Positions 6,516-52,331 of a stretch of 64,000 nucleotides of DNA are shown here, one piece after another. The notes beneath the pieces were generated by a model. The model saw only the letters and a program-made list of their open reading frames with translations, was not told the origin of the DNA and ran no database searches. This DNA comes from an uncultured bacterium (GTDB taxonomy: Bacteria > Oederibacteriota > JAAXVQ01 > JAUVAV01), in NCBI GenBank assembly GCA_963710755.1, contig CAVQBK010000003.1, positions 1,280,001 to 1,344,000 on the forward strand. Reading direction: 5' to 3'. The translations under genes and the position numbers were made by a program. The stretch's first letter is position 1, and each line of letters starts with the position of its first letter.

Positions 6516-7118
6516 ATGAAAAAAATGGTGATGTTAGGCTTGGCAGTGGTCGCAATGGTTGCATTTTCGGGGTTAGCCAAGGCGGCGAGTTCCGAGGCAT
6601 TTCATTTGGTGGTTGTGGTTGCAAGCGATGAGATTGCGGTGGATGTGACCGGCGTGGATAACAACGGCTACGTTAATCTCGGGGTCGTGCAGGCAGGCAA
6701 TGCTCTGGTGACGTCATCAGGACAGCATTCCAATGTGATGAACGTGGGCTATGGCACCATTGATCTGCAACTGCAGGCTGTGACCAATGCCAACAACTCG
6801 ACCTGGACGCAGCGCACCGATGCCCCCAGCAATCCCCTTAATGCTAATGAATACCGTTTGGGTGGTATCTTTACCCAGTGGGATAGGAGTACCATTGCAG
6901 CCTCGGATTTCGGAGCTGATGATATTTTTCAAACGACGGCCACCACTTGCACGGCCACGGTTCATGCCTTTGACAGCGAGGCTGATGGCGTAAAAGGATT
7001 TAATGTAGCGCCCGGAGCTTCCCGCGCCTTGCATTACATGTTCCAAGCGCCGTCCACCGTTTCCAACCCTGGTGAAGTGGTCATGGATCTGGTAGTTTCG
7101 GCGGTCTTGCATATTTAA
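6516..7118 (+). CDS. Secreted pilin-like beta-sandwich protein (paralog 1)
   Basis: Sec signal (AKA-A); shares NVG, WTQR, LNANEYR, IFT, DFG.DD, KGFN..PG..R...F.AP with 7222 and partly with 8037. Confidence 0.55.
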   Translation: MKKMVMLGLAVVAMVAFSGLAKAASSEAFHLVVVVASDEIAVDVTGVDNNGYVNLGVVQAGNALVTSSGQHSNVMNVGYGTIDLQLQAVTNANNSTWTQRTDAPSNPLNANEYRLGGIFTQWDRSTIAASDFGADDIFQTTATTCTATVHAFDSEADGVKGFNVAPGASRALHYMFQAPSTVSNPGEVVMDLVVSAVLHI

Positions 7119-7221
7119 TTCACCGAGTTCGGCGTCATGAAAACACTGCCTTTTTTAAAGTGTAACCACCCAATGTCTAAGGGGCTAACGAACACCGCCT
7201 AACAAAGGCTAGAGGACGTTT

Positions 7222-7830
7222 ATGATAAGATACACGGTTCTTTTTCTGGGGATGATTGTGGTTCTTCTTTCGCTACGGCCCGTAGCGGCTGAAGATCAAA
7301 CGCACCTGGAATTCAATATCATTGTTTCCATCGAGGCCAATGATATCGCATTGGAGATCTCGGCGGGCGAATATCACGCATTCCTGGATAAAACAGCTGT
7401 CCGAACCGGTGAAACCATAATCACGCCGGCCAAGCAGGACGTGACCGTCACCAATGTAGGCGGCCGTAATATCACGGTGTCTATCCAGGCCTCGACCAAT
7501 GAGACCAGCGTCGGTCACTGGACCCAACGGGTGGACGGCCTAGGCAATACGCTCAATGCTAATGAATACCGGATCAGCGCCATATTTACCAATGCTCAAC
7601 GTTCCGTCATGACGGCTGCTGATTTTGGGGATGAAGACGTTTTGAACACTGTCCTTAAACCTGCGACCAGCACGGCATTAGCTTATAATCAGGAATTGGA
7701 TCGTTACAAAGGATTTAATATTCCCCCGGGGGAGAGCAGATCTTTGTTCTTTCGTTTCGATGCGCCACCCACCGTGACTTACCCTGGGGAACTGTTGATT
7801 GACATTGGGCTCCATGCCCAATTGCCCTGA
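7222..7830 (+). CDS. Secreted pilin-like beta-sandwich protein (paralog 2)
   Basis: Sec signal; WTQRVD..GNTLNANEYRISAIFT, DFGDEDV, KGFNIPPGESRSLFFRFDAP. Confidence 0.55.
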   Translation: MIRYTVLFLGMIVVLLSLRPVAAEDQTHLEFNIIVSIEANDIALEISAGEYHAFLDKTAVRTGETIITPAKQDVTVTNVGGRNITVSIQASTNETSVGHWTQRVDGLGNTLNANEYRISAIFTNAQRSVMTAADFGDEDVLNTVLKPATSTALAYNQELDRYKGFNIPPGESRSLFFRFDAPPTVTYPGELLIDIGLHAQLP

Positions 7831-7861
7831 AGAGAAAAAACGCTTTACGGTCATAAGAGTG

Positions 7862-7870
7862 TGGTATAAT
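7862..7870 (+). promoter_or_regulatory. Extended -10 promoter for paralog 3
   Basis: TGGTATAAT (TGnTATAAT) in the 7831-8036 intergenic region. Confidence 0.5.
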
Positions 7871-8036
7871 TTTTTTTGCTTCACCATTAAAGTTGCGAAG
7901 GATTTTAACCGACCCTAAAGGCTTTTTTCGTCATGTGTTCGTCGGGCAGCTGACAGGAAAGGGGGGATGAGAGCGTCGTTGGATTTATGTGCTGCAGTTT
8001 ACAAAGACCATAATAAAAATTGATGAGGTGAAGACC

Positions 8037-8633
8037 ATGAAAAAGAAACTCCTGATTGCTTTAGCCCTTCTGGCCTCCTTAACGCTGGCCGCCCAGTCTT
8101 TTGCCGCTACCACAGCCACCGTTAACATTACGGTCACCATTGTCAGCGGTGTGGTTAGTATTGCCAATACCGGTCCTGCTGATGTTTCCTTCAATGCTAC
8201 CAATCCAACAATTTTATTCAACCAAACAGGTTATGTAAGCGCTGACGGTACCGGCAATGGCCGGGCTATCTTTAAAAATGACAGCGTTGATACAACTGCT
8301 GATTTTTCGGTACAAGCTATAGACTTTGATCCGAATTTTACCTTGGGCACAGCCCCAAGCGCCACTGCTGGCGTACTTTATGGTATTTGGACACAATGGG
8401 ATCGTACTCCTATTGCTGCCTCCGATTTTGTGGCTAATGATATCATTACCACTACCTCCAAACTTTCCAGCACAACGGATTTTGCTTTGGATGGAGAAGG
8501 CGATAATGTTAAAGGCTTCAATATCCCGGCAGGTGACGAACGGAATATGTACTTCCGCTTGGATACACCCACCAGCGGCACGGCTGGGTCTTTTACCTCG
8601 ACCATGACCGTCACCGCTTCAGTCCATATTTAA
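8037..8633 (+). CDS. Secreted pilin-like protein (paralog 3, candidate major subunit)
   Basis: GAGGTG RBS; MKKKLL..SFA signal; mature N-terminus ATTATVNITVTIV; TQWDR..IAASDF..DI, KGFNIPAGDERNMYFRLDTP, C-terminal VHI. Confidence 0.6.
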   Translation: MKKKLLIALALLASLTLAAQSFAATTATVNITVTIVSGVVSIANTGPADVSFNATNPTILFNQTGYVSADGTGNGRAIFKNDSVDTTADFSVQAIDFDPNFTLGTAPSATAGVLYGIWTQWDRTPIAASDFVANDIITTTSKLSSTTDFALDGEGDNVKGFNIPAGDERNMYFRLDTPTSGTAGSFTSTMTVTASVHI

Positions 8634-8646
8634 TTTAAGCCAACGG

Positions 8647-8683
8647 CATATCCAACTGCCCCAGCCTGGGGCAGTTGGATATG
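8647..8683 (+). other. Perfect 17-bp hairpin without U-tract (mRNA stabiliser or attenuator)
   Basis: CATATCCAACTGCCCCA-GCC-TGGGGCAGTTGGATATG. Confidence 0.7.
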
Positions 8684-8708
8684 ATCCGGCTGGGCAGGGG
8701 GACCTAGA

Positions 8709-9608
8709 ATGATAAAAAAAATATGGGGCTTAATAATAGCTGTATTGGTTCTGTCTGCAGGTTCGGTGCATGCCGATGCACTGGCTTTACGTAATTATGC
8801 TGAGATCTTGGTTCAAAACCTGCAAATCGGTCAGACCTACAGCATGATCAACCTTGTCAACCTGCCTCTGGAAATCGCCAACAACGGCGATGCCCCTGCG
8901 ACCGTGGAAATCAATGTTTTTAAGCCTTCACCGGGCAAGACCAAGCCCGGCTTTGAACCCATTCCCGATACGTCCTGGATTACTATTGCACCCAAACAAG
9001 TGACCATTGCAGCGCATGCGGTTTATGACACGGATGTGAAAATTTCCATCCCCAAAGATAAAGCCCTGCTGGGCAAAAAATTTCATGCTGATTTGCATGT
9101 GCGCACCCTGCCGGAAGGTAAGTCCATGATGATGATCGCCTTGGCCGTACAGGGTCGGTTTTTATTTACTATTGCACCGGTGGAGCAGGAAACAACTGCA
9201 CCGGAAAAAGTAAATCTCAATTTTAGCGTCAAGCCGGGACGGATCGTGCTGGATCAGGTGCCCTTGGGCCGGGCCGTGGCCGTGAAAGCTGAAAAAGGCC
9301 ATCCGGTTACCATTAAAAATAGTAGCGCGGAAGAATTAACCATTTTCGTTAAGAGTCTGGATCCTCGACAAACCATCACGCGCATTGAAGAAGGTTACCA
9401 AGCCTGCCCTGATCCGAATTTTATCACCTGTCCTCAGGGTGAACTCCAGCTTAAGGGTAAATCGGAAAAAGCATTGGAACTGAAATTGCGGATTCCTGAC
9501 CAGCCTGCTTACCGCGGCAAGCATTATCAGTTTATTGTGGCCGTGAGCACAGGCGAACAGACCAGCGGGATCAGATATGTGCCCATTCTGGTCAATACTG
9601 CACCCTAA
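8709..9608 (+). CDS. Secreted two-domain Ig-like protein (fimbrial chaperone / WxL-interacting-like)
   Basis: Signal peptide; two internally similar domains: IANNG...GFEPIPDTSWITI...VKISIP and IKNSS...GYQACPDPNFIT...LKLRIP. Confidence 0.5.
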   Translation: MIKKIWGLIIAVLVLSAGSVHADALALRNYAEILVQNLQIGQTYSMINLVNLPLEIANNGDAPATVEINVFKPSPGKTKPGFEPIPDTSWITIAPKQVTIAAHAVYDTDVKISIPKDKALLGKKFHADLHVRTLPEGKSMMMIALAVQGRFLFTIAPVEQETTAPEKVNLNFSVKPGRIVLDQVPLGRAVAVKAEKGHPVTIKNSSAEELTIFVKSLDPRQTITRIEEGYQACPDPNFITCPQGELQLKGKSEKALELKLRIPDQPAYRGKHYQFIVAVSTGEQTSGIRYVPILVNTAP

Positions 9609-10385
9609 ATGAAGGGTTTACGTTTATTGATAATTGTTGCTGTTGTTGCCGGTTTGACAGCGAGCCGGTTGATGGCTTTGGCTCTGGATTTGGACCCTGC
9701 CATGATCCAGGCAAACCTCCGGCCGCACGAGTCCCGGACTTTTACGGTCCGGATCAGCAACCCGTCGTCTGAGAAGATTAGGTTGACCGTGGAATCTGAC
9801 TGTTGGAGTCCCGGCCGGCTTCCCGGTCCATCGGAACAATGGCTGCAGCTGACGCCGCACCAGATGGTATTAGGTCCCGGCCAAACTGAGGACTTACAAA
9901 TAAAGACAGTCTTTCCCGATCCCCTGGAGGGGGAAGTGGTGATGATGGTTTATCTGGTACCGGAGATCAAGCCAGGGCAGCTATCCATCAAGACCAGGAT
10001 GGGGTTTCCGGTTTATTTAAGGAAAAACGCTACGGTTGAAAAGAAGGCGGCCATAACGGCATTTTCAGCACGGCAACAGGGGAACCGGTTGCTTTTGAAT
10101 TTTGAATTGCGCAACAACGGCAACAGCCATCTGTTGCCTTTCGGCGCGGTGCTGCTCAAACAGCAAGGCAAAGTAATGCGGCAACGGGAAGTGGTTTTTG
10201 ACCAGCCCCTGTTCCGAGACCGGACGTTGAGCAAGCAGGCGGAGATGGATCTGGGCGGTCTTGGGCCGGGCCACTATCAGGCTCAATTGGACCTGTTTTT
10301 GAATGACGGGTTTAACCAGGATTTTGCGCAAGCCGGGCTGCCACTGGTTAGTAAAACCTGTGAGGTTACAATAGAAAAACCATGA
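9609..10385 (+). CDS. PapD/EcpB-like pilus assembly chaperone homolog
   Basis: Signal peptide; LDPAMI..L.P.ESRTFTVRISNP, WLQLTP..MVLGPGQ, RMGFPVYL, LRNNGNSHL, LGPGHYQAQL. Confidence 0.6.
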   Translation: MKGLRLLIIVAVVAGLTASRLMALALDLDPAMIQANLRPHESRTFTVRISNPSSEKIRLTVESDCWSPGRLPGPSEQWLQLTPHQMVLGPGQTEDLQIKTVFPDPLEGEVVMMVYLVPEIKPGQLSIKTRMGFPVYLRKNATVEKKAAITAFSARQQGNRLLLNFELRNNGNSHLLPFGAVLLKQQGKVMRQREVVFDQPLFRDRTLSKQAEMDLGGLGPGHYQAQLDLFLNDGFNQDFAQAGLPLVSKTCEVTIEKP

Positions 10386-10486
10386 TCATCGGCGGGCATC
10401 TGCAATAATGATGAAATAAAGGGCTGTTGTCCTTTGTCTAATCACTAGAGCGTGCTCTGACCGGATGCCAAGAAAGGATTAATGCT

Positions 10487-11443
10487 ATGGTCCGACATAA
10501 GGGGATGTGGAGCCTGGGATGTTTGGCGGGCCTGTTGCTGATGGCCTGGCCGCAACACAGTTACGCTGAAGCCTTTATCCGTGCGGATGTACTGGGCCTC
10601 TCGACCAATGCCGCGGCCACGGGCACCTTGAATCTTGGGTCCTTGAGCGTTCAGGATCAGTATTACCTTTTTCCTTTTTATTTGCGCATTGAATTCCCAT
10701 CCACCAATTTCACCGCCTGGGGTATACAAATGTATACCAACAACAATAAAACCCAAAGCTGGACGCCATTGAATGGTTTAAGCGGTGGCTTGCGGGGGCT
10801 TACCAATCCCAGTTACGGCATTCCCATGCATTGGCAGGTCTATGATCAGCTGCAAGATGCTGTTCCCAATTGGGGCGCAGCCAATTCCGTGACCATGACT
10901 GCAGGCGGCCTGGCTTATAACAGCTCAACCTTAGGGTATTGGGGCAGACTGTATGACCAGTCGGATGCGGATGTGAAGGATAGTTGGGACACGAGCACCA
11001 TAGTCCTGCGGCGTACGCTGGCCAGGGATAAGGGGTTGGGCGATTATCCGGTGAGTGGCAGGCCCACGGCCAATTCGCCTATCTATGTTTACCTGGGGCT
11101 GGATTTAACCGCTGTGACCATGTCCCAAACTTATGGCACGACCTTAATCGTGGATTTATATAATTTGAACATTCCCATTTCCCAAGGCGGTTATGCCACA
11201 CCCAATCCGTTCACGCCGACCACAGGGCAAAAGACTAATTTTAATTTTTCCGTTCAAAATTATAGCGCAGCCTTTAAGATTAATATCTACACCATCCGCG
11301 GCCGCAAGATCCGAACCATTACCGATTCACGGGAATGGGATGGCCGCAATGACCACGGTGAGATGATGGAAGGCGGTCTATATATTTATCAAATTGAAGC
11401 TGAAGGCAAGCGAGTAAGCGGCACGGTGGTGCTGATTAAATAA
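10487..11443 (+). CDS. Secreted protein with pilin-like N-domain and FlgD/T9SS-like C-terminal sorting domain
   Basis: Signal peptide; WGIQMYTNN, SPIYVYLGLDL; CTD PNPFTP...INIYTIRGRKIRTI..WDGRNDHGEMMEGGLYIYQI...GTVVLIK. Confidence 0.7.
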   Translation: MVRHKGMWSLGCLAGLLLMAWPQHSYAEAFIRADVLGLSTNAAATGTLNLGSLSVQDQYYLFPFYLRIEFPSTNFTAWGIQMYTNNNKTQSWTPLNGLSGGLRGLTNPSYGIPMHWQVYDQLQDAVPNWGAANSVTMTAGGLAYNSSTLGYWGRLYDQSDADVKDSWDTSTIVLRRTLARDKGLGDYPVSGRPTANSPIYVYLGLDLTAVTMSQTYGTTLIVDLYNLNIPISQGGYATPNPFTPTTGQKTNFNFSVQNYSAAFKINIYTIRGRKIRTITDSREWDGRNDHGEMMEGGLYIYQIEAEGKRVSGTVVLIK

Positions 11444-11537
11444 TCGTCCCAGCGCGTTAGCTGGCCGGCATCCCAAGAACCTGGAACCTCTGTGGCTGCA
11501 ACCTACAACGCTATAATTAGATGGCCCGGATGGACCA

Positions 11538-12614
11538 ATGAGGAAGGAATGGGGGCGCATGATAGCCAAACCTCATAAGGCATATTTTAAAAGTGGAGCC
11601 AAGGTTGTTTTGGTGGTCCTGGTCATGCTTGTGACCGGGGTGGAGGCTGGTCATGCTTATTTTGAAGATTTAGGTATGGGCAGCAGACCCATCGGCATGG
11701 GTGAAGCCTTTGTGGCCGTAGCCGATGATTCCAATGCCGTACTCTGGAATGTGGCCGGTCTGGCCGGACTTAAAACCCGCGAAATCAACTTGATGTACTC
11801 TGATTTGTATTCTCAACTCAATGGTAAATTATATACCGGTGACAACGACCATTTGGGCTTTCATAACATTGGAATGGTCATGCCCTTTGATCCGGTCATT
11901 GGCAGTTTTGGTTTTACCTGGACCTATTTCGATTCTGTTTTTTACAAAGAAAATACGTTTATCCTCAGTTATGCCAGGTCCATAGGTGATACTGTCTTTG
12001 AGTGGGCCGGTGTTAAGGACAAACTTAAGGATATAGGGCTGGACGCAGGGATAAACTTGAAGCTCCTCAACTGGATGCTGACAGAAGATCGTTATACTGC
12101 CCTTAATCCGGCGTTGCAATCCAATAAAAGCCGTACCGGGTTCACGGCTGATTTTGGATTGCTGGCCACATTTCCTTATGGCATCAAGGCAGGACTGAGT
12201 GTGGCCAACTTAATCCCTGCCAATATGGGGGTGGTGGAGTATGAGACGGCACCTATAAATTTCAGACTGGGAGCTTCTTATACTTATGAATTTGACAAAA
12301 AAGGCTCCCTGGTTAATTCACTTCTGGGCACCCTGGAATTAACCCAACGCAATAATATTTCCGACCTCAGGGTGGGAACAGAGGCCTGGTTCTTTGAGCA
12401 TCAGGCAGCCTTGCGGATGGGAAGCACAGCCGATCAATTTGCAGCGGGTATCAGCTATCTGTTGCCCATTGCCAGGACGCCCATTAAACTTCGGTTTGAT
12501 TATGCCTTTACTTACTCCTATACGATTCAGGATACCATTGGATCACACCGTGTAGCCATGGTCGTCTTTTGGAATCCTGAACCACGGGAAGCCTATTTTA
12601 AGCCCTTGCAATGA
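11538..12614 (+). CDS. PorV/PorP(SprF)-like outer-membrane beta-barrel
   Basis: GMGSRPIGMGEAFVAVADDSNAVLWNVAGL, LRVGTEAWF, LRFDYAF, GSHRV; start may be 11559. Confidence 0.8.
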   Translation: MRKEWGRMIAKPHKAYFKSGAKVVLVVLVMLVTGVEAGHAYFEDLGMGSRPIGMGEAFVAVADDSNAVLWNVAGLAGLKTREINLMYSDLYSQLNGKLYTGDNDHLGFHNIGMVMPFDPVIGSFGFTWTYFDSVFYKENTFILSYARSIGDTVFEWAGVKDKLKDIGLDAGINLKLLNWMLTEDRYTALNPALQSNKSRTGFTADFGLLATFPYGIKAGLSVANLIPANMGVVEYETAPINFRLGASYTYEFDKKGSLVNSLLGTLELTQRNNISDLRVGTEAWFFEHQAALRMGSTADQFAAGISYLLPIARTPIKLRFDYAFTYSYTIQDTIGSHRVAMVVFWNPEPREAYFKPLQ

Positions 12615-17020: not shown

Positions 17021-20000
17021 ATGACTAAATTTTTTCGGGCAATACTAATTCTTATGATGGGACTTCTGGGCATGGCCCAGATGGCTTCGGCCGAGGACGT
17101 CTTATTGGATAATACGGACACTACCCAAGGATGGATGGTGTTTAATGATGCCAAAGCCACAGGCTCGGTGTCTGTGGGACCTGGTCCCAACTCCACCTGG
17201 AAAGCCCTGGTGATGAATTACAATTTAACCGGCGGTAACTGGGTGTCTTTTGTGAAAAAAATCCCGGCCGGCATGCAGGGCATGAAAACATTGGTTTTTT
17301 ATTACCGCGGGCAAGGGAAGTATAATTTGGAAATCAAAGTACAAGATGGTGAAGGCGCAACTTTCGGCTTGAAAATTATCGGTGGTTCGGAAGTGCCCAA
17401 GTGGAAGAAGCTAGTGATCCCCATCGGCGAACTGAAATATCTGTGGGGCGGTACTGCTCAAACGCTCAATCCTGCCAATATACGACAATTCGAAATCGCC
17501 GTATCTACTGATGGTGGTGGCGGCCCGGGTAAAATGATGGTGTCGCACATCAGCTATTCTATGGAGACCATGAAAGCTGAATTGCCCGCAGGCACAGCAC
17601 CCGCTCAGGCCAAAGTACCGGAAACAACGACGCCCGGCATGAGTTACCGGGCTTTGGGCAATGTGGACATTGGCGCCAAAACCTCCTGGTCCACCTACGC
17701 CGACAAAGGCGCTGTGATCAATATTGATATAGCTTCCGGTCCGGCTGCAGGGGAAAAAGCGCTGCAAGCGAAATACCATTGGGGCCAGCGGGCCATTCCC
17801 GGCGTTCAGGAGCAAACCGGGATATGGGTGGCTTTTGTCAAAGATATTGGCATGGATCTGTCGGATATGCGTAACATGAGCTTTGTTTTCAGAGGTACCG
17901 GATCTGCAGCCAATCTGGAAGTCAAATTGGCTGACCAATATGGTGCCCGTTATGGCCGGGTCTTTCCCAACGGCAGTACCAGTGAAAAATGGACCACCAT
18001 TTCCATCCCCCGTTCGGATTTCAATTATATGTGGGGTGGCGACGGCTCGGGCAAATTTGACTGGAATCATGTGAAAGCACTGGAGATATCCTTGTCGCGC
18101 ACCGGCGATGCCCGCGACAGCGGAACCTTTGAGATTGCGGAAATTCATTTTGAAAGCGCGGTTTCCGTTTCCCGACCCATTGCCGGCCAGAAAGAGGCCC
18201 TGACCACAGTCAGCGGCCAGATCAAGGTTATCATCGACGACTTTACCGACCTCAATCCCACCAATCGCTATTTTGTTGTGGAAGGCGACGATTCCACACT
18301 GCAGCTGGACTCATCGCGCATCACTTTTCAGTCCGAATATTCCATGCGCATGCGTTATACCCTGAAATCCAGCCGGCCTATCGGCTCATGGGTGGAGGCC
18401 CAGCGACGATTTTCACCGGCTCTGGACTGGACCGGGGTGGAGAATGTGCGCATTTGGGTCAAAGGGGACGGCTCACGCAATATTTTCCGGATCAGTATTA
18501 CCGACGGGGAAGGACGAGTGTGGGTCAATGACAACAATGAGGTCTTGGCCTCCACCGACTGGTTCCTCGTGGATATGCCGGTAGAAACCTTTATGCTCTA
18601 TCAGGATCTCTATGCCCGCAAAGCTTCCAAACGATATGATCTAAGCAAGCAATTGCATACGGTGCGCCAGTTAGGCATCAGTGTCATCAGTCAACCTGAC
18701 CGAAGCAGCCAAGCTTCAGGTGAAATATTTGTGGAACAACTCTATGTGGTAGGACGAGATATTAATGTCGCTGCTGCCGTACCTATCAGGGAAAAACCAC
18801 CAGTGGGTATTGCTGTCCCTTTGAAAAATTGGAACATCGGCGGCACCTCGACCACGACCATGGAGAACTTACCCTCAAGCGGTAATAATATCACTCAGAG
18901 CATCAAGCCGCAATTAACCGGCAATTTCAAAAAATTCAGTGTTTTTACAGAATTGGATTTTGAATCACTCTTTGGCAATGAATCCGATGGCATACGTTCC
19001 CAAAGTGCAGCGATGACCGGCTCCAATGTCAGCGTGATTCTGCTCGATCCCTTCGCAGGTGTCAGCAATGTGATTGTCGGGAATTTATGGTTTGATGATT
19101 CGCAGCATATTTTTGCCAACAACAACCGCTACGGCGGTTGGGGCTTCAAAGGCATTCAGGCCGAGGGCTGGGTGGATGGCGTCCATCACCGCACTTATTT
19201 TCTTAAGCATAAACCTGATTCCTACACTTTGGCCGGGCACTACGCCCTCACAGCCGGAAATTTGAATTTTAATTTGGTCGGAGCTTATTACAACCAGTCA
19301 CCCTTTATTCCCAATGGCACAAAATTGGAAGAGGATGACAAGGCCTTTTTGTTTGATGTTACGCACCATTTAATTATTCCCAATCTCATGACTTTGAACA
19401 CCCTTGTGCGCGGCGGATATGACTGGTATCAGAAGTACTGGGATGTGCAAACCCAATCAGATATCGATAAGAGAGATTCAGGTCTGTTTATGGAAGGGGA
19501 ATTGAATTTTTCCGACCTAACCAATATTTTCTGGCCCGGGTTATCCTTCACCGGTCATTACCGTTATGTGGATACCGGCTTCAAGCCGCAATATCGCGAT
19601 AATCCTTATGTCTGGGATGATGAGATAGGCGACACCAATGGTTACATGGTCCAGCTCTATCAGGATTTTTCCGGAGCTTTTCTGACCGCCCAATATTACA
19701 AATATAACCGTCTTTCCAATCCGGATAATTACCTGGAAGATACTATTTTTTCGGTTGGCTACAATGATTGGAGTTCCGTAGATCTATCGCTGACCCAGGA
19801 ATTTAAAACCAAAATCTATCAATATTCGGATACCCGTTTCATTGTGGATGATCTCCCCGTTTATTTTGACGATAACCGTTCCGAGACGAGAACCACCCTG
19901 GCGGTAGCCTACCATTTCAGCGGCAGCTTTATCGTTCAGGAACAATTACAATTCAACCTGGTTGATCAATTTGCCCTGAACCAAAAGTATACGGAAATGT

Positions 20001-20164
20001 TTTCCACTATCAAGGTGTCCTATACGCCTGCACCCAACATTACCTACTCCATTGAAAACCGTTTCTCGCGCTACGGCCGGGAACAGGATGTACCTGTGAT
20101 TAACATCGCTGATCCATCCACGTTGTATGAATACACACGAGCCAGAATTGATTTGACATTTTAA
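17021..20164 (+). CDS. Three CBM11/CIA30-like domains fused to a C-terminal outer-membrane beta-barrel
   Basis: Three jelly-roll repeats (YYRGQG, FRGTGSAANLEVKLAD, WVKGDGSRN), then ~450 aa of amphipathic beta-strands ending YTRARIDLTF. Confidence 0.65.
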   Translation: MTKFFRAILILMMGLLGMAQMASAEDVLLDNTDTTQGWMVFNDAKATGSVSVGPGPNSTWKALVMNYNLTGGNWVSFVKKIPAGMQGMKTLVFYYRGQGKYNLEIKVQDGEGATFGLKIIGGSEVPKWKKLVIPIGELKYLWGGTAQTLNPANIRQFEIAVSTDGGGGPGKMMVSHISYSMETMKAELPAGTAPAQAKVPETTTPGMSYRALGNVDIGAKTSWSTYADKGAVINIDIASGPAAGEKALQAKYHWGQRAIPGVQEQTGIWVAFVKDIGMDLSDMRNMSFVFRGTGSAANLEVKLADQYGARYGRVFPNGSTSEKWTTISIPRSDFNYMWGGDGSGKFDWNHVKALEISLSRTGDARDSGTFEIAEIHFESAVSVSRPIAGQKEALTTVSGQIKVIIDDFTDLNPTNRYFVVEGDDSTLQLDSSRITFQSEYSMRMRYTLKSSRPIGSWVEAQRRFSPALDWTGVENVRIWVKGDGSRNIFRISITDGEGRVWVNDNNEVLASTDWFLVDMPVETFMLYQDLYARKASKRYDLSKQLHTVRQLGISVISQPDRSSQASGEIFVEQLYVVGRDINVAAAVPIREKPPVGIAVPLKNWNIGGTSTTTMENLPSSGNNITQSIKPQLTGNFKKFSVFTELDFESLFGNESDGIRSQSAAMTGSNVSVILLDPFAGVSNVIVGNLWFDDSQHIFANNNRYGGWGFKGIQAEGWVDGVHHRTYFLKHKPDSYTLAGHYALTAGNLNFNLVGAYYNQSPFIPNGTKLEEDDKAFLFDVTHHLIIPNLMTLNTLVRGGYDWYQKYWDVQTQSDIDKRDSGLFMEGELNFSDLTNIFWPGLSFTGHYRYVDTGFKPQYRDNPYVWDDEIGDTNGYMVQLYQDFSGAFLTAQYYKYNRLSNPDNYLEDTIFSVGYNDWSSVDLSLTQEFKTKIYQYSDTRFIVDDLPVYFDDNRSETRTTLAVAYHFSGSFIVQEQLQFNLVDQFALNQKYTEMFSTIKVSYTPAPNITYSIENRFSRYGREQDVPVINIADPSTLYEYTRARIDLTF

Positions 20165-20188: not shown

Positions 20189-21757
20189 ATGGACCAATCA
20201 GCCAACAGGTCTCGCTTGAGCTTGGGTCTAAACCAACGAATTAGGCAAGGTAGCAAGGTGGCAGTGCTGGTCCTGCTGCTGGGCAGTATGATGACCGGTG
20301 TCCAAGCCGTGACCTCGGCTCAGTTGAACAGCATGGACAATCATGAGTGGGCCTTTGGATTTGGCGCGGCCAATACGATCGCCTTTGGCAATGACCAAGG
20401 CTATGATGCCATGAAGGTCACGGTCACGGACAACACCCAGATTTATTCGGCAATAAAGGTTAACGGCTTTTTCTATCCCGAAGACTGGTCTGGCATTACG
20501 GCTGTCAAAGTTTGGGTTTACATTGAATCTGCTAGCGATGGTAAAGAACTGCAATTATCGGTTCAAAAAGGGGATGGCTCGGAAATTACCAAGCCGATTT
20601 CAAGCGGTATTCCAGCTAATTCTTGGGTGGAGATTACCTTGGGCACTGATTTCAGTGCAGCCACGGCGGTATCACAAGTCATGTTGGTGGCTAACTATGT
20701 GGCCAGCGGTGATATTATCTATTACCGTGATATGCGCCTAGTCATAGGCGGGGTGGACCACCCCTGGGATGCCATGAACGGCCCCAGTTACAATTGGAAT
20801 CCCATCACCACCAGCGATTACAATATGTGGAATACCAGCGGCCAGCGTAATGAGCCGATTTCAAATTCAGTGACGGCCGATGGCTCGGCCGGCGCCCTTT
20901 ATCTGCCCTGGTCAGCTGACCGGTCGGCGGATTCGGAAGCCAAAGTGGAAAGCGGCAGTTTGCAGGGCATTACCGATCTTTCTTCTTATAATGAAATTCG
21001 TTTCAAGGTCTACAGCGACAGCACTGCCGTGCCGGTCAAAATGGGTTTCTGGGATGGCACCAACTTTGCCAGTTCCCCTGAATTTCAAGTCAGTTCAGCT
21101 GGTCAATGGGAAGAAGAGAGCTTTACGCCTCCCAGCGGGGTGGACATGAGCAGTTTGGTCAACATTTCTTTTCATGCTAACACCTCTTCTTTGGCAGGGC
21201 AGTCAGGGAATGTCTATATTGACAGTGTGCAATTTTTCACCATTCCCGCAACCTTCACGTTTACCCCAACGCCATCCTTTACCATGACGCCAACCCCAAC
21301 CATTTCCGCCACCTTCACACCGTCGCCAACCAACTCGCCCTCGTCAACCCATACGCCTGTCTTTTCGCCTACCACGACGCCCACAGTGACGCCGACAGTG
21401 ACTATGTCGCCCACGGGGACGCCAACACCCACCGCCTCCGTCACCTTTACTACAACACCAAAAGGACCTTTCAGTTTTGATGTTCGCATGGAGCGCAATA
21501 GTTTCAATCCTGCCCTGGGCCAGGTGTTGCACATCATCATTGAGTTGCCGGAGCATGAACCCCTTCAGGTAACGGTGTATAACCGTTTAGGGTTAAAAAT
21601 AAAGGAACTGGCCAATATTACCGTAGATCCCGGCCCTATAAGTTTGTCCTGGGATGGCAAGGACCAGGGCGGCAAAGTTGTGGCCAGCGGCGTATACATG
21701 ATTTACATTAACAGCGCCTCCCAGCAGAGCAAGAAGCTGGTCGCTATCATTAAATAA
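20189..21757 (+). CDS. Secreted tandem CBM-like protein with Thr/Pro linker and FlgD/T9SS-like CTD
   Basis: Two jelly-roll modules ending GNVYIDSVQF; TPTP linker; CTD NSFNP...VYNRLG...WDGKDQGGKVVASGVYMIYI...VAIIK. Confidence 0.75.
   Translation: MDQSANRSRLSLGLNQRIRQGSKVAVLVLLLGSMMTGVQAVTSAQLNSMDNHEWAFGFGAANTIAFGNDQGYDAMKVTVTDNTQIYSAIKVNGFFYPEDWSGITAVKVWVYIESASDGKELQLSVQKGDGSEITKPISSGIPANSWVEITLGTDFSAATAVSQVMLVANYVASGDIIYYRDMRLVIGGVDHPWDAMNGPSYNWNPITTSDYNMWNTSGQRNEPISNSVTADGSAGALYLPWSADRSADSEAKVESGSLQGITDLSSYNEIRFKVYSDSTAVPVKMGFWDGTNFASSPEFQVSSAGQWEEESFTPPSGVDMSSLVNISFHANTSSLAGQSGNVYIDSVQFFTIPATFTFTPTPSFTMTPTPTISATFTPSPTNSPSSTHTPVFSPTTTPTVTPTVTMSPTGTPTPTASVTFTTTPKGPFSFDVRMERNSFNPALGQVLHIIIELPEHEPLQVTVYNRLGLKIKELANITVDPGPISLSWDGKDQGGKVVASGVYMIYINSASQQSKKLVAIIK
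21241..21460 (+). repeat. Thr/Pro/Ser low-complexity linker coding region
   Basis: TFTFTPTPSFTMTPTPTISATFTPSPTNSP...TPTVTPTVT. Confidence 0.8.
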
Positions 21758-21762
21758 AAAGG

Positions 21763-22710
21763 ATGATGCCTATGAAAACCAGAATAAGTTTAGGGATAAT
21801 GGTTATTGCCTTTGGCATGATCTCTGGTACAGCCCAGGCCGCTACTGGTGCCGATATGCTGGCAGCACAGCTCTCGCCTAGAGCCTTGGCTTTGGGTGGG
21901 GCCGCAACGGCCATGACCCAGGGCATTGACGCACTCCTGGTCAATCCTGCCGGTGCCAGCACGGTCAAACAATTTCAGATCAACGCCCTCTATCAGAGCG
22001 GTATAATTGACAGCACCCAATATCTGGCCTTGGCCGGGCCGATCAAGGTCGGCGGGGTCTTGGGACTGGGACTGACCTATCGCAGCCTGCCGCCCATAGA
22101 CAACCAAGGCGCAATGGATCAGTCCGTGGATGTAGAGGATGTGGTGGCTGCGCTTACCTATGCTTATAGCTTTCAGCTGGAGCCCAAAACCGATCCGGAA
22201 ATGGGCGCGGCTTTAACCTTCAAATGGTTAAGGTCGGTATTGGGAGTTTATGATGCCTCCACAGTGGCTATTGATTTGGGGGCTTGGTGGAAACCTCGTT
22301 TTTCACCGTCTTTATCGGTGGGTCTGGTCTTAAAAAATATGGGGCCGGCGCTTAAATTCATCGATGTGGCTGACCAGTTACCCATGAGTGCTAATTTAGG
22401 CCTGGCCTATCAAGTGCTTGCCGGCAAGCATCATGCCTTGCAGCTGGGCATGGCGGTGGATGTGCCGGTGGATACGGATCTTCTCGCCGTAAGTGCAGGT
22501 GCTGAATATTGGTTTGATCAAATCATCGCCGTGCGCGTGGGTTACCAATACCAAAATAATTCTCTGGCCGCTACGGTTTACGGAGGCCTTGGTGGGCAGT
22601 TTTACCTTAACAATCTGATGTTCAAGATTGACTACGCTTTATCGCCAGTACAATTTTCCACGGAGTTGCTGGAATTTGAACATACCGTTGCTTTGACCAT
22701 GGGATTTTAG
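21763..22710 (+). CDS. PorV/PorQ-like outer-membrane beta-barrel
   Basis: SPRALALGGAATA...NPAG, IDLGAWW, KNMGP..KF...DQLP, AGAEYWF, IDYAL, C-terminal F. Confidence 0.85.
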   Translation: MMPMKTRISLGIMVIAFGMISGTAQAATGADMLAAQLSPRALALGGAATAMTQGIDALLVNPAGASTVKQFQINALYQSGIIDSTQYLALAGPIKVGGVLGLGLTYRSLPPIDNQGAMDQSVDVEDVVAALTYAYSFQLEPKTDPEMGAALTFKWLRSVLGVYDASTVAIDLGAWWKPRFSPSLSVGLVLKNMGPALKFIDVADQLPMSANLGLAYQVLAGKHHALQLGMAVDVPVDTDLLAVSAGAEYWFDQIIAVRVGYQYQNNSLAATVYGGLGGQFYLNNLMFKIDYALSPVQFSTELLEFEHTVALTMGF

Positions 22711-22731
22711 AAGTGGAGGAATAGCCGGAAT

Positions 22732-23775
22732 ATGCGCCGTGCACACAAAATCATCTGGATTGTCCTATGGGGCTTGGTGGTGGGGAGTGTTTTCCCACGT
22801 CCGACTGTGGCCGCAGAGTCGGCCAGCTTTAACCTGGGCGTAACCATCATTGACTATACAGTAGTACAGCTCAACAGTTGTGATAATCATGCTTGGGCCG
22901 CCCGGGATTGGGGTGCTGATTTTAATCTAACTTATGGCACCTTCAATGGACGGCGGGCCGTGCAAGCCAAAGTCACCAACCCCGACAATGCCTGGGCTTT
23001 GTTTCAAACCGATATCTATGTGCAACCCGATGACTGGTCCTCTTATGGCGTTGTGAGTGTTGATATTTACAATGATTCAGCTAGCGCCAAAGGCTTTGAA
23101 TTGGTATTGGATGATGCCAATAATAATGAACTGTTTCGCCAAACCTCTTCCGTATCGGTCAACCCCGGGAGCTGGCAAACGGTGACTTGGAACACAGCCT
23201 CCTTTCCCGCCAATGTGTCCCAAGTGAATTTAGTGTTTACCGCCGCCTCTTTTCAAGTGGGGGACAAGGTTTACTTCAGTAATTTAAGATTGGGGACAGG
23301 TGGCAAGACCTGGGACCCCTTCAGCGCGCCCAGCTACCGCTGGGAAGGAAGCGGCGATTTCGTGCCCTGGTCCACCCAGGGGCGCAACGACGGCATCGCC
23401 AATCAGGTGACCTATGCCAATTCCCCGGGCGCGGTGGTGCTGCCCTGGGACAGCGCCCAGGATGTAGGGGTCACCTTTGCCAAGATGCAGGCCACGAACT
23501 TGAGCGGCTTTGATTATTCCGGGAACACCACCATTACCATGCAATGTTTCAGTACCAGTACGGCCATTCCCATTTATATTGAATTTTGGGATGGAACCAT
23601 TCATAATACCACCCCTCAAAACGTGGGTACCGCCAACAGCTGGCAATTGCTGACCTGGACTATTCCCGGCGCAGTGGATTTAAAGCATTTGCAAGCTTTT
23701 AGTTTGATGCTGGATACCTCCGCGGCTTCCGGTTCAGGTAAAGTATATATTGATGATATTCGTTTCAATCCTTAG
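22732..23775 (+). CDS. Secreted tandem CBM-like protein, paralog of the 20189 N-terminal part, without CTD
   Basis: QLNSCDNHAWA, PDDWSS, WDPFSAPSYRW, FWDGT and SGKVYIDDIRF align with 20189. Confidence 0.7.
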   Translation: MRRAHKIIWIVLWGLVVGSVFPRPTVAAESASFNLGVTIIDYTVVQLNSCDNHAWAARDWGADFNLTYGTFNGRRAVQAKVTNPDNAWALFQTDIYVQPDDWSSYGVVSVDIYNDSASAKGFELVLDDANNNELFRQTSSVSVNPGSWQTVTWNTASFPANVSQVNLVFTAASFQVGDKVYFSNLRLGTGGKTWDPFSAPSYRWEGSGDFVPWSTQGRNDGIANQVTYANSPGAVVLPWDSAQDVGVTFAKMQATNLSGFDYSGNTTITMQCFSTSTAIPIYIEFWDGTIHNTTPQNVGTANSWQLLTWTIPGAVDLKHLQAFSLMLDTSAASGSGKVYIDDIRFNP

Positions 23776-37177: not shown

Positions 37178-38164
37178 GTGGCAGAGCTGATAACCGCGAT
37201 AGTGGAGATGAAAAAGAGCATGGCCGTTGATAGCAACCGGAACGGACATAAGCACAGCTTTTCGGCCTTGGCCTTATTGGCTTTATTGATAATGGCCACT
37301 ATGGGGTGCGCCCAGCGTCAATTTAAGGCAGGCAACAAAGCCATGCAGGATTTTGATTACAATGAAGCCATCAAGCAATATGACCGGGCGCTTCAGGCTG
37401 ATCCTAAGATGTACGAAGCCTATTACAATATGGGGAATGCTTTGATGCGTCTCGGTCATTACCAGCAGGCAGTGACTGCCTATCAAAAAGCTGTGGATAT
37501 GAATCCGGATGATGAAGATATACGGCACAATTTGATGATCGCAAAAAAGCAGCAGAAGGATGATGATTCTTCCGGCCAAGGCAGTAGTGGCGGTGGCGGT
37601 GGTGGTGGAGGTGCCGGCGGCGGGGGCAGTAATTCCTCTCAGCAGCAACAGCAACAGCAACAGCAACAACAGCAACAACAACAACAACAGCAACAGCAAC
37701 AGCAACAACAGCAACAGCAACAGCAACAACAACAACAACAACAACAGCAACAGCAACAGCAACAGCAACAACAGCAACAACAACAGCAACAACAACAACA
37801 ACAGCAACAACAGCAACAACAGCAACAACAGCAACAACAGCAACAACAACAACAACAGCAACAACAACAACAACAACAACAACAGCAACAACAGCAACAA
37901 CAACAGCAACAGCAGCAACAGCAACAACAGCAACAACAGCAACAACAACAGCAACAACAGCAACAACAACAGCAACAACAGCAGCAGCAGCAACAACAGC
38001 AGCAGCAGCAGGCTCCACCGTCTTTACCCAAGGCCATGCAGGCAAAATTGGATCAAGCTGATAAAAACGACCGCAACCAACAACGGCAAAAACAACAAAA
38101 CAATAAAAACCAAAAGAAGAGCGAGTTTGAATCTTCTTGGGGACAGGAAGAAAAAAATTGGTAA
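37178..38164 (+). CDS. TPR (lipo)protein, BatC-like (copy 2), with poly-Gly and 124-Gln tract
   Basis: Hydrophobic stretch plus TMGC; AYYNMGNALMRLGHYQQAVTAYQKA..NPDDEDIRHN; C-terminal KNW; start uncertain (37178/37208/37220). Confidence 0.8.
   Translation: MAELITAIVEMKKSMAVDSNRNGHKHSFSALALLALLIMATMGCAQRQFKAGNKAMQDFDYNEAIKQYDRALQADPKMYEAYYNMGNALMRLGHYQQAVTAYQKAVDMNPDDEDIRHNLMIAKKQQKDDDSSGQGSSGGGGGGGGAGGGGSNSSQQQQQQQQQQQQQQQQQQQQQQQQQQQQQQQQQQQQQQQQQQQQQQQQQQQQQQQQQQQQQQQQQQQQQQQQQQQQQQQQQQQQQQQQQQQQQQQQQQQQQQQQQQQQQQQQQQQQQQQQQQQQAPPSLPKAMQAKLDQADKNDRNQQRQKQQNNKNQKKSEFESSWGQEEKNW
37640..38011 (+). repeat. (CAA/CAG)124 trinucleotide tract encoding polyglutamine
   Basis: 372 bp of uninterrupted mixed CAA/CAG codons in frame. 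Confidence 0.95.
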
Positions 38165-52292: not shown

Positions 52293-52331
52293 TTAACCAG
52301 GCTGAAAGCCATGGCGTTCAAGAGGAGTACC

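What the first reader, a model, noticed from the sequence alone, without database searches (positions are those of the whole stretch)
20189..23775. The same lectin-like module carries two different display tags (CTD vs pilin-type N-strand)
Seen in sequence: 20189 and 22732 share a two-domain module over ~300 aa (QLNSMDNHEWA/QLNSCDNHAWA; PEDWSG/PDDWSS; WDAMNGPSYNW/WDPFSAPSYRW; FWDGT; SGNVYIDSVQF/SGKVYIDDIRF). 20189 adds a Thr/Pro stalk and a CTD. 22732 has no CTD but has an extra N-terminal strand, AESASFNLGVTII, absent from 20189 and resembling the pilin N-strands (ASSEAFHLVVVV, ATTATVNITVTIV). Inference: 22732 is a fibre-capping adhesin that plugs into a pilin groove, so one binding module would be displayed both at the cell surface and at a filament tip. 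This independently supports the pilus model.
Basis: partly seen in the sequence, partly recalled or inferred. Interest (0 to 1): 0.85.

Follow-up and report, generated by a model that had tools for sequence, protein, structure and literature searches.

The report
Sugar-binding module with a pilin plug
Two sister genes encode the same sugar-binding module, one tied to the cell surface by a secretion tail and the other carrying a short N-terminal strand that is predicted to plug into neighbouring pilin-like proteins, which points to an undescribed fibre system in an uncultured bacterial phylum.

Summary
20189 and 22732 are paralogs (36% identity over 313 aa, E 2e-45) of a tandem CBM-like beta-sandwich module. 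20189 adds a Thr/Pro stalk and a T9SS-type CTD, and a PorV/PorQ barrel gene follows it. 22732 has no CTD but carries 15 extra N-terminal residues (28-42).

- The strand is present in 18 of 19 complete short homologs and 0 of 15 long ones.
- It is unfolded in the monomer model.
- In a complex model it is the only part that touches pilin-like 8037-8633, lying antiparallel to that protein's last strand. Score 0.77, best control 0.01; the mark was reached by 58 of 80 solved complexes and 2 of 110 mismatched pairs.

Further support: the strand co-varies with the pilin strands of its own genome, and in a distant genome the short form lies inside the pilin cluster.

The closest known system is the WxL/Elr donor-strand pilus (bioRxiv preprint, Oct 2026), but membership is not shown. 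Still open: whether fibres form, and which end the module caps. Donor-only subunits sit at the base in known pili. All evidence is computational.

The parts
20189..21757 (+). Long paralog (522 aa): signal peptide (about res 1-40), tandem CBM-like module (res 41-350), Thr/Pro stalk (about res 351-436), T9SS-type CTD (about res 437-522). It has no N-strand.
   Evidence: Translation. BLASTP to 22732. FlgD_ig 27.4 bits against cut-off 27; CHU_C, Por_Secre_tail and TIGR04183 below their cut-offs.
21763..22710 (+). PorV/PorQ-family outer-membrane barrel (315 aa), probably the cognate surface partner of the CTD protein encoded just upstream.
   Evidence: NF033709 PorV_fam 125.1 bits, cut-off 90. 'CTD ORF followed by PorV_fam ORF' recurs across the genome.
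22732..23775 (+). Short paralog (347 aa): signal peptide, N-terminal donor-type strand and tandem CBM-like module. It has no CTD.
   Evidence: Translation. AF2 model pLDDT 87.1, pTM 0.80. Foldseek: tandem CBM22 4xup E 5e-10, SGBP-B 7kwb E 1e-8.
22813..22857 (+). N-strand of 22732 (res 28-42), the proposed donor strand or 'plug'.
   Evidence: Coil with low pLDDT in the monomer model. It is the only part of 22732 in the predicted interface with the pilin-like protein. Conserved as a pattern in all 18 aligned short forms.
6516..7118 (+). Pilin-like protein A (200 aa), with an N-terminal strand after the signal peptide.
   Evidence: No Pfam hit. AF2 pLDDT 65, pTM 0.62. Best Foldseek hits are FimA, CfaB, CS17 and CS20, E 5e-3 to 3e-2. 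VIA Z 5-6.5 to donor-strand filament subunits.
7222..7830 (+). Pilin-like protein B (202 aa).
   Evidence: Paralog of A, 36-37% identity.
8037..8633 (+). Pilin-like protein C (198 aa), the predicted acceptor of the 22732 strand.
   Evidence: Complex prediction: interface residues 40-44, 48-53, 58-61 and 183-195 among others, with the last strand antiparallel to 22732 residues 32-39. Its own N-strand is the closest to that of 22732.
8709..9608 (+). Soluble secreted Ig-like protein 'chapA' (299 aa), a candidate chaperone.
   Evidence: PF06030 WxLIP_PGBD below threshold in 3 of 3 orthologs, best E 0.0022. Conserved next to pilin-likes in FCPU426 and in L015. No C-terminal membrane helix seen in the sequence.
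9609..10385 (+). Second secreted Ig-like protein 'chapB' (258 aa).
   Evidence: Conserved after chapA in 4 other loci. Only a faint PF06030 match, E 3.95.
10487..11443 (+). 318-aa protein with a CHU_C-type CTD; part of the conserved core operon and a candidate anchor.
   Evidence: CHU_C 28.7 bits, cut-off 27. Conserved position. Its N-domain shows no detectable kinship to the pilin-likes.
11538..12614 (+). PorV/PorQ-like barrel of the core operon.
   Evidence: PorV_fam 58.9 bits, below cut-off 90. In four relatives' loci the barrel gene is 573-592 aa; the OmpA domain was checked and found in one of them, L044 (PF00691, 63.9 bits).
17021..20164 (+). 1047-aa protein with CBM11/CIA30-like domains and a long C-terminal region read as a possible barrel (context; role unknown).
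   Evidence: Pfam CIA30 and CBM_11. The ortholog lies directly before the pilin-like gene in L015. The barrel is my reading of the sequence and was not tested.

Best explanation
22732 encodes a secreted tandem beta-sandwich (CBM-like) glycan-binding module. Its first 15 mature residues act as a donor strand. The strand is unfolded on its own and completes the open Ig-like fold of a pilin-like subunit (6516, 7222 or 8037; best candidate 8037-8633) by inserting antiparallel to that subunit's C-terminal strand. This is the same chemistry as donor-strand exchange in chaperone-usher and WxL pili.

20189 carries the paralogous module without the strand. It is displayed instead through a Thr/Pro stalk and a T9SS CTD, probably held by the PorV/PorQ barrel 21763.

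The donor strand is therefore a portable plug. In this clade it is found on pilin-likes, on this payload, and in sister genomes on bare 'strand - Thr/Pro stalk - CTD' anchors. Because 22732 has a strand but no groove, it can only cap the groove-exposing end of a pilin chain.

Shown by computation: paralogy, conservation of the strand, its disorder in the monomer model, co-variation, synteny and the predicted interface. Inferred: that fibres form, that binding happens in the cell, which end is capped, how the parts cross the outer membrane, and the ligand.
For: 1. Paralogy: 36% identity over 313 aa, E 2e-45.
2. Conservation: 18 of 19 complete short homologs carry an alternating-hydrophobic strand after the signal peptide; 0 of 15 long forms do (N-termini read by eye).
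3. Monomer model: AF2 leaves residues 21-43 as coil, block pLDDT 43 and 56, with the module at 84-98.
4. Complex with mature 8037-8633: ipSAE 0.77, 0.41 and 0.84 (median 0.77), best of 3 controls 0.01. The mark was reached by 58 of 80 solved complexes and 2 of 110 mismatched pairs. The runs agree in at least 76% of contacts and the partner's pLDDT is at least 71. On 22732 the interface is residues 28-42 only. On the pilin it includes the last strand, 183-195, in antiparallel register, and not the pilin's own N-strand.
5. Co-variation: own-locus mean score 27.2 against 15.8 for other genomes. 3 of 6 are strictly best in their own locus and 1 ties. The true assignment was reached by 27 of 20,000 permutations.
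6. Independent synteny: in L015 (27% identity to 22732) the short form lies between the chapA homolog and a pilin-like-CHU_C CTD fusion. That genome has no long paralog.
7. Anchors: strand - Thr/Pro stalk - CTD proteins lie next to pilin pairs in G007, G002 and G009. Por_Secre_tail scores 30.7, 28.3 and 23.0 bits against cut-off 27.
8. Pilin-like fold: the best weak matches are self-complemented FimA, CfaB, CS17/20, Csu, TasA and archaeal bundling pili.
9. In G008 the pair has been homogenised to 71% identity, yet the tags are kept.
Against: - Everything is prediction. The complex model may score high from memory of solved donor-strand pili, and my own shallow alignments (7 and 18 rows) were used, so the calibration holds only roughly. 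One of the three runs scored 0.41.
- The pilin-like fold is only moderately confident (pLDDT 65), and its structure matches are weak: Foldseek E >= 4.7e-3, VIA Z <= 6.5, where Z under 8 may mean only a common arrangement.
- No usher or PapD-type chaperone is detectable in the genome, although both searches rang in E. coli. Export across the outer membrane is unexplained.
- One of six donor-only proteins (the G009 anchor) does not match the pilins of its own locus.
- One short homolog (P0028), and P0032, lack the strand.
- In known systems donor-only subunits are base terminators, not adhesins.
- Genomic context is available for only 3 module-bearing genomes, plus one inferred pair on a single contig.
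Confidence: 0.6

Rival explanations
1. The N-strand is a sorting or chaperone-recognition tag shared with the pilin-likes. It would be read by 8709/9609 or by an export route, or would dock on the PorV/PorQ barrel 21763 encoded just upstream, rather than being a structural plug in a pilin groove.
For: 22732 follows a PorV/PorQ barrel gene in G000 and G008. It has no CTD, so its way across the outer membrane is unknown. chapA/chapB homologs always accompany the pilin-likes of the core operon. Co-variation with pilin strands would also arise if all of them were read by one co-evolving receptor.
Against: In L015 the short form is not next to a barrel but lies between chapA and a pilin-CTD fusion. 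The complex model places the strand in the pilin groove with controls at 0.00-0.01. In the WxL system the chaperone binds the groove and leaves the donor strand free.
Confidence: 0.14
2. The strand joins 22732 to its long paralog 20189 or to itself (edge-strand swap). This would give a surface hetero- or homodimer of lectin modules that does not depend on the pilin-likes.
For: Long and short forms are encoded as a pair in G000 and G008. P0013 (long) and P0005 (short) are each reported on a contig of 106,941 bases, probably the same one. The long form lacks exactly this strand.
Against: G099 has the short form only: 1 match in that genome. The strand resembles the pilin strands of its own locus. 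The AF2 monomer shows complete sandwiches with no open edge reported. Not tested by a complex model.
Confidence: 0.08
3. The N-terminal extension is a linker or a leftover with no docking role, and its likeness to the pilin N-termini reflects a common composition just after signal peptides.
For: The matched stretch is short (5 of 9 identical in G000). Alternating hydrophobic N-termini are common in beta-rich secreted proteins (general knowledge).
Against: It is kept in 18 of 19 short forms down to about 25% identity and is absent from 0 of 15... that is, present in none of the 15 long forms. A genome-wide scan of G000 finds the strand only in the three pilin-likes and 22732: scores 54-58, next best 33. 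The complex passes its controls.
Confidence: 0.05

Closest known systems
WxL/Elr pilus of Enterococcus faecalis (Sleutel et al., bioRxiv 10.64898/2026.10.17.759780; abstract and sections 7, 8, 9, 12, 14 read)
   Same: - Small pilins have an N-terminal donor strand (mature residues 1-15) that pairs antiparallel to the acceptor's C-terminal strand.
- The chaperone is not PapD-type, and there is no usher.
- Payloads and anchors are modular.
- ElrB is a subunit with a donor strand and no acceptor domain.
- Here chapA gives sub-threshold DUF916 (PF06030) matches in 3 of 3 orthologs. Atlas leads point to WxL (0.83) and to clusters bearing WxLIP_PGBD (0.86-0.87).
   Different: - No WxL domain is detected, and the Elr donor motif does not fit 22732.
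- chapA is soluble, without the DUF3324 membrane helix.
- Anchors are T9SS CTDs, not LPxTG.
- The host is a diderm of candidate phylum FCPU426, whereas the preprint found the system only in Bacillota.
- The adhesin-like payload donates a strand, whereas Elr tip adhesins accept one.
Chaperone-usher pili (type 1/P, CFA/I, archaic Csu)
   Same: Donor-strand exchange runs antiparallel to the last strand. The best (weak) structure matches of the pilin-like model are FimA, CfaB, CS17/20, Csu and EcpA. The adhesin is a lectin module joined to an assembly element.
   Different: No usher (PF00577) and no PapD_N (PF00345) were found in the genome, with controls positive. CU tip adhesins carry a pilin domain with a groove and no donor strand; 22732 is the reverse.
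T9SS cargo with type A/B CTDs and their PorV/PorP/PorQ-like partners (PMC9143113, PMC12618676, PMC5562754: search listing and start of abstract only)
   Same: 20189 has a signal peptide, a stalk and a C-terminal Ig-like sorting domain, and the adjacent gene encodes a PorV/PorQ-family barrel. This resembles type B CTD cargo paired with PorP-like anchors.
   Different: The host is outside Bacteroidota. The CTD matches are at or below family cut-offs. The genome has 43 PorV_fam matches (27 of the 43 rows marked over the cut-off on their own, 4 more only with neighbouring stretches), many directly after CTD ORFs. 22732 has no CTD at all.
Cohesin-dockerin scaffolds and Bacteroidota surface glycan-binding proteins (recalled, apart from the 7kwb structure match)
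   Same: Glycan-binding modules are displayed on a surface scaffold next to glycoside hydrolase and sugar-transport genes. The model matches SGBP-B 7kwb.
   Different: Attachment is by strand insertion into an incomplete Ig fold, not a dockerin or a lipid anchor. There is no SusC/D pair in the window.
Type V pili of Bacteroidota (FimA/Mfa1)
   Same: Strand-exchange fibres in T9SS-bearing bacteria. The 8 papers that hold both 'donor strand' and 'type IX secretion' are P. gingivalis type V fimbria papers and general reviews.
   Different: Type V pilins are lipoproteins matured by proteolysis and donate a C-terminal strand (recalled). The pilin-likes here have no lipobox cysteine at the signal-peptide cleavage site and use an N-terminal strand.

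Membership tests
WxL/Elr pilus system | Pilins carry a WxL domain (PF13731) | tested here: not met
   0 of 7 pilin-likes match PF13731 at E <= 10. The genome search found none, while the control rang in Lactococcus. The only hint is an Atlas lead at 0.83.
WxL/Elr pilus system | DUF916/DUF3324 membrane-anchored chaperone | tested here: inconclusive
   PF06030 matches 3 of 3 chapA orthologs but below the cut-off (best 18.5 bits against 27.3). No C-terminal membrane helix is seen in 8709 or 9609. Homologs in the big database carry only fn3_5.
WxL/Elr pilus system | N-terminal donor strand antiparallel to the acceptor's C-terminal strand | tested here: met
   In the predicted complex, residues 32-39 of 22732 pair with 191-183 of the pilin-like protein. 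This is a prediction only.
WxL/Elr pilus system | Donor motif [S/T]8-x-[G/A]10-x-[V/I]12-x-F14 | tested here: not met
   Mature 22732 has L, V, I and D at positions 8, 10, 12 and 14 (read).
Chaperone-usher pili | Outer-membrane usher (PF00577) | tested here: not met
   No match in G000 (98% complete) at E <= 0.01; E. coli was positive.
Chaperone-usher pili | PapD-like periplasmic chaperone (PF00345) | tested here: not met
   No match in G000; E. coli and Caulobacter were positive.
Chaperone-usher pili | Pilin with an incomplete Ig fold completed in trans | tested here: inconclusive
   Structure matches are weak. The complex model is consistent with it.
T9SS type A CTD cargo (for 20189) | C-terminal sorting domain over the family cut-off | tested here: inconclusive
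   FlgD_ig 27.4 against 27. TIGR04183 17.2 against 23. Por_Secre_tail 13.5 against 27. CHU_C 21.3 against 27.
T9SS type A CTD cargo (for 20189) | T9SS translocon and partners in the genome | tested here: inconclusive
   A 2142-aa ORF gives five collinear SprA matches (99.6, 76.1, 51.3, 36.9 and 22.7 bits), each below the 200-bit cut-off. PorV_fam is abundant. GldM and SprA_N were not found, but their controls rang nowhere.
Carbohydrate-binding modules (CBM22, CBM11 and the like) | Sequence membership of a CAZy/Pfam CBM family | tested here: not met
   22732 has no Pfam hit at E <= 0.1. The likeness is at fold level only (4xup, 7kwb, 1wky). Binding was not tested.
Type V pili | Lipoprotein pilins with a C-terminal donor strand | tested here: not met
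   There is no lipobox cysteine at the cleavage site of the pilin-likes, and the conserved exchangeable strand is N-terminal.

The most novel reading that the evidence does not exclude
FCPU426 and related uncultured diderms have an undescribed donor-strand fibre system: pilin-likes, two soluble Ig-like helpers, no usher. It would be coupled to type IX secretion, and the donor strand would act as a universal plug. CTD-bearing subunits would anchor the assembly, and perhaps carry it out, while CTD-less payloads such as 22732 join by strand insertion. The polarity would be opposite to chaperone-usher and WxL pili, with the adhesin donating rather than accepting. The result would be a cellulosome-like, exchangeable glycan-capture appendage.
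Probability: 0.3. Interest if true: 0.85.

Novelty: new variant of a known kind. Interest (0 to 1): 0.72.

Why it matters
Donor-strand exchange was long thought to be confined to chaperone-usher pili. It has only just been reported for Gram-positive WxL pili, in a preprint that found that system only in Bacillota.

A third setting would show the mechanism is far more modular than known. That setting combines a diderm candidate phylum, no usher, T9SS tails as anchors, and a payload that carries the donor strand itself.

It would also give a testable rule for finding cargo of such fibres: a short N-terminal strand that matches the local pilins. And it would explain how an uncultured glycan degrader shows one binding module in two ways. 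The locus sits among GH144-like, GH35 and sugar ABC transporter genes.

Tried and rejected
**Searches for homologs and their context**
- The word-based homolog search with 22732 found only itself.
- The search for related loci failed for lack of conserved columns with alignments A1 and A2.
- It found nothing with P0003, A5 (metagenomes), P0014 or P0007. With A5 in genomes it found only the G008 record.
- Scans for the module among G099's relatives and phylum sample found only G099 itself: 1 of 61 and 1 of 301.

**Sequence and profile comparisons**
- PDB sequence searches with 8709, 9609 and the chapA profile gave no meaningful hit.
- hhalign of the 10487 family against the pilin-likes showed no kinship. 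I dropped the idea that 10487 is a diverged pilin.
- The chapA family in the large database is unnamed: 20 proteins, fn3_5 only.
- Notes from earlier scans of this genome had nothing on this locus.

**Rejected reading**
- The reading that the strand is part of 22732's own fold was rejected.

- Complexes of 22732 with pilin-likes A and B, with 21763, with 20189 or with chapA/B.
- Pilin homo-oligomers.
- Models of chapA and chapB.


Full report
**1.

The window is G000:C3:1280001-1344000. ORFs 20189-21757 (522 aa, P0001) and 22732-23775 (347 aa, P0003) are separated by 21763-22710 (315 aa, P0002). P0001 and P0003 align over 313 residues at 36% identity, E 2e-45, from residue 42/43 to the end of the module. 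These are the only two copies in the genome.

After the module P0001 continues with a Thr/Pro-rich stretch and a C-terminal domain. That domain matches FlgD_ig at 27.4 bits (cut-off 27) and, below their cut-offs, CHU_C, Por_Secre_tail and TIGR04183. P0003 ends two residues after the module and matches no family. Between its signal peptide and the first shared motif, P0003 has about 15-17 residues that P0001 lacks; I take residues 28-42 as the strand.

**2. What the module is**

An AlphaFold2 model of P0003, built on 18 short-form homologs, has mean pLDDT 87.1 and pTM 0.80 and shows two beta-sandwich domains. Foldseek against the PDB finds:
- the tandem CBM22 pair of Xyn10C (4xup, E 5e-10);
- Bacteroides surface glycan-binding protein B (7kwb, E 1e-8);
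- many other CBM-type sandwiches.

This is likeness of fold only. The TM-scores over both domains are low (about 0.29) and no CBM family matches by sequence. 'Lectin-like' is therefore reasonable, but the ligand is unknown.

The cluster lies between two sugar ABC permease genes, three PF10091 'glycoamylase'/DUF3131 proteins and a GH35/GH42-like enzyme. It also holds other CBM11/CIA30-like secreted proteins.

**3. The CTD side**

P0002 is a PorV/PorQ-family barrel (NF033709, 125.1 bits, cut-off 90). The cluster repeats the order 'CTD protein, then PorV/PorQ-like barrel' three times: 10487/11538, 14084/16058 and 20189/21763.

Genome-wide there are 43 PorV_fam matches. Many lie directly after ORFs whose ends match the CTD part of the PorU model.

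A 2142-aa ORF gives five collinear SprA matches, each below the cut-off. GldM and SprA_N were not found, but the controls for those searches rang nowhere, so that says little.

Display of P0001 by a T9SS-like route with a dedicated barrel partner is thus likely but not proven. It resembles what is reported for type B CTD cargo and PorP-like proteins (PMC9143113; I saw only the search listing and the start of the abstract).

**4. The N-strand is conserved in short forms and absent from long ones**

A full HMMER scan of 1.84 billion representatives found 51 proteins at E <= 0.001 (32 at <= 1e-10, 12 at <= 1e-30), the query among them. I tabulated 54 sequences: these hits plus P0001 and the two G008 proteins. 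Sequences dropped before counting:
- 11 did not align over the module's N-part.
- 7 were truncated fragments.
- 1 had the module at the end of a 1609-aa protein.

Of the remaining 35:
- 19 end within 5 residues of the module; 18 of these carry an alternating-hydrophobic strand just after the signal peptide, and P0028 does not.
- 1 (P0032, with a 19-residue tail) lacks the strand.
- 15 have C-terminal extensions of 95 residues or more, and none has the strand.

I judged presence of the strand by eye from the printed N-termini. In P0020 it is weak. All 18 aligned short forms show the pattern. Five long forms were checked and have CTD-type matches: P0001, the G008 long form, P0009, P0013 and P0017. 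These sequences are related to one another, so the contrast overstates independence.

**5. The strand does not fold into its own protein**

In the monomer model residues 21-43 have no secondary structure. Block pLDDT is 43 (residues 21-30) and 56 (31-40), against 84-98 for the domains.

**6. The neighbours are pilin-like**

Three paralogous 198-202-aa secreted proteins (6516, 7222, 8037) match no family. They begin, after the signal peptide, with a similar strand and end with a conserved beta-strand.

The model of 6516 is only moderately confident (pLDDT 65, pTM 0.62). Its best Foldseek matches are self-complemented FimA monomers, CfaB, CS17 and CS20 (E 4.7e-3 to 2.7e-2). A Foldseek-independent scan gives Z 5.2-6.2 to archaeal bundling pili, CS17, the TasA fibre, Csu, the Sulfolobus 0406 thread and CfaB. 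The top row of that scan, however, is Cox11 (Z 6.5), and Z under 8 can mean only a common arrangement. Most of these alignments start at model residues 36-39, after the N-strand.

The pilin-likes occur in 15 of 99 FCPU426 genomes searched (8 of 10 in the same family), against 2 of 99 for the module. G008 is labelled a candidate division FCPU426 MAG.

A conserved core operon emerges: pilin-like(s), chapA (like 8709), chapB (like 9609), a 10487-like CTD protein, and a PorV/PorQ barrel that in the one relative checked (L044) also carries an OmpA domain. The window's 6516-12614 is such a core.

**7. Evidence that ties the strand to the pilin-likes**

- *Co-variation.* The 9-mer of each module's strand that best matches a pilin strand usually comes from its own genome. 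G008 scores 30 against at most 16 elsewhere. G099 scores 27 against at most 18. G000 scores 23, tied with G008.
- *Independent synteny.* L015 is a distant, AT-rich MAG whose short form P0018 is 27% identical to P0003. Its gene order is: CBM-plus-barrel protein, pilin-like (hhalign 97.5%, E 5.5e-12), chapA homolog (27% identity, E 2e-35), short form, pilin-like domain fused to a CHU_C CTD (97.9%; CHU_C 34.9 bits), PorV/PorQ-like barrel. That genome has no long paralog. The strand therefore goes with the pilin genes and not with the paralog.
- *Anchors.* In G007, G002 and G009, two pilin-likes are followed by a 254-291-aa protein made only of a signal peptide, a pilin-type strand, a long Thr/Pro stalk and a type A CTD. 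Por_Secre_tail scores 30.7, 28.3 and 23.0 bits against a cut-off of 27. Two of the three strands closely match their neighbouring pilin (6 of 9 and 7 of 9 identical). The third does not.
- *Permutation test.* Over all six donor-only proteins the own-locus mean is 27.2 against 15.8, and the true assignment was reached by 27 of 20,000 permutations. The G007 and G002 loci are orthologous, so the sample is small and not independent.
- *Genome-wide scan.* A crude scan of G000 finds this strand only in the three pilin-likes and P0003 (scores 54-58, next best 33).

**8. The docking test**

I folded mature 8037-8633 (residues 24-198, keeping its own N-strand) with P0003 residues 28-190.
- The scores were 0.77, 0.41 and 0.84 (median 0.77), against 0.00-0.01 for three controls.
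- The mark was reached by 58 of 80 solved complexes and 2 of 110 mismatched pairs.
- The runs agree in at least 76% of contacts, and the partner's pLDDT is at least 71.
- On P0003 the confident interface is residues 28-42 and nothing else.
- On the pilin-like protein it includes 48-53, 58-61 and the last strand 183-195. The pairs 191:32, 189:34, 186:36 and 184:38-39 show an antiparallel register. The pilin's own N-strand is not in the interface.

This is the geometry of donor-strand exchange. The caveats are real. The model supports binding but does not show it. The pass may come from memory of solved pili. My own shallow alignments were used. Only one of the three pilin paralogs was tried.

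**9. Comparison with known systems**

The nearest description is a preprint of 17 Oct 2026 on the E. faecalis Elr/WxL pilus. I read its abstract and sections 7, 8, 9, 12 and 14. It reports:
- pilins with a 15-residue N-terminal donor strand that pairs antiparallel to strand F of the acceptor;
- a DUF916/DUF3324 membrane chaperone;
- tip adhesins that have a groove but no donor strand;
- ElrB, which has a donor strand, no groove and an LPxTG anchor at the base.

It reports the system only in Bacillota, from a screen of 4,698 genera in 81 phyla.

The present locus works like it but is not shown to be a member:
- No WxL domain is found.
- chapA matches DUF916 only below threshold, though in 3 of 3 orthologs, and it lacks a membrane helix.
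- The Elr donor motif does not fit.
- Anchors are CTDs.
- Chaperone-usher membership fails on the usher and on PapD.

A search for papers holding both 'donor strand' and 'type IX secretion' returned 8, all on P. gingivalis type V fimbriae or general reviews. 'Donor strand' with 'carbohydrate-binding module' and 'pilus' returned 2 unrelated papers. Within that library I found no description of this arrangement.

**10. Polarity, the main open point**

A linear donor-strand chain has one free groove and one free strand. P0003, like the strand-stalk-CTD anchors and like ElrB, can only occupy the free groove. In chaperone-usher and WxL pili that is the cell-proximal end.

P0003 would be distal only if the chain is anchored through its other end. 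In G099 the pilin-CTD fusion, which keeps both a strand and a groove, would allow the order payload, pilin, pilin-CTD. In G000 no strand-stalk-CTD anchor exists. The anchor there is unidentified; 10487 with 11538 is the positional candidate, but its N-domain shows no kinship to the pilin-likes.

How CTD-less parts cross the outer membrane is also unknown.

**11. A further detail**

The long and short forms are 36% identical in G000, 33% in the P0013/P0005 pair, and 71% in G008. In G008 the first domain is nearly the same in both, yet the strand and the CTD are each kept on their own copy. The module has been homogenised there while the two tags were preserved, which fits the idea of two display routes for one binding activity.

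**12. Verdict**

The reading that the strand plugs into a pilin groove is supported by five independent kinds of computational evidence. The 'filament tip' part and the existence of fibres remain inference.

I rate it a new variant of a known kind (donor-strand assemblies), with interest 0.72.

Noticed in passing
G000 genome-wide; in the window 10487/11538, 14084/16058, 20189/21763: The genome has 43 PorV/PorQ-family matches, 27 of the 43 rows marked over the cut-off on their own and 4 more only with neighbouring stretches. At least a dozen lie directly after an ORF that ends in a CTD-like domain. It looks as if each cargo has its own barrel partner, on a scale unusual for T9SS.
   Followed up: partly
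L038:8540-9304, L043:2565-3335, L040:8916-9791 (all minus strand): Sister genomes encode 254-291-aa proteins made only of a signal peptide, a pilin-type N-strand, a long Thr/Pro stalk and a type A CTD, next to two pilin-like genes. They look like dedicated donor-strand anchors, comparable to ElrB with its LPxTG.
   Followed up: partly
L009:4260-5972 and L009:7084-8157 (G008): The long and short paralogs are 71% identical in G008, against 36% in G000, and the first domain is nearly identical. This suggests gene conversion between the pair, with the tags preserved.
   Followed up: partly
window 17021-20164; L015:64-2547: This large protein has CBM11/CIA30-like domains followed by a long C-terminal region that I read as a possible outer-membrane barrel. 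It is conserved and lies directly before the pilin-like gene in the distant locus. It could be the export or anchoring pore, but that was not tested.
   Followed up: no
L015:5349-6191: A pilin-like domain is fused to a CHU_C-type CTD and followed by a PorV/PorQ-like barrel gene. This would be a pilin subunit with a built-in T9SS anchor.
   Followed up: partly
window 37178-38192: A long low-complexity stretch reads as Asn/Ser repeats on the + strand and as poly-Leu on the - strand, inside or beside a 328-aa ORF.
   Followed up: no
window 52185-59270: A 2361-aa ORF that I did not examine.
   Followed up: no
G000:C13:396883-397323 (minus strand): A 146-aa protein made of a signal peptide, a short Thr/Pro stretch and a CTD-like end. 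It was the best non-pilin hit of the strand scan (score 33), probably because of its composition.
   Followed up: no
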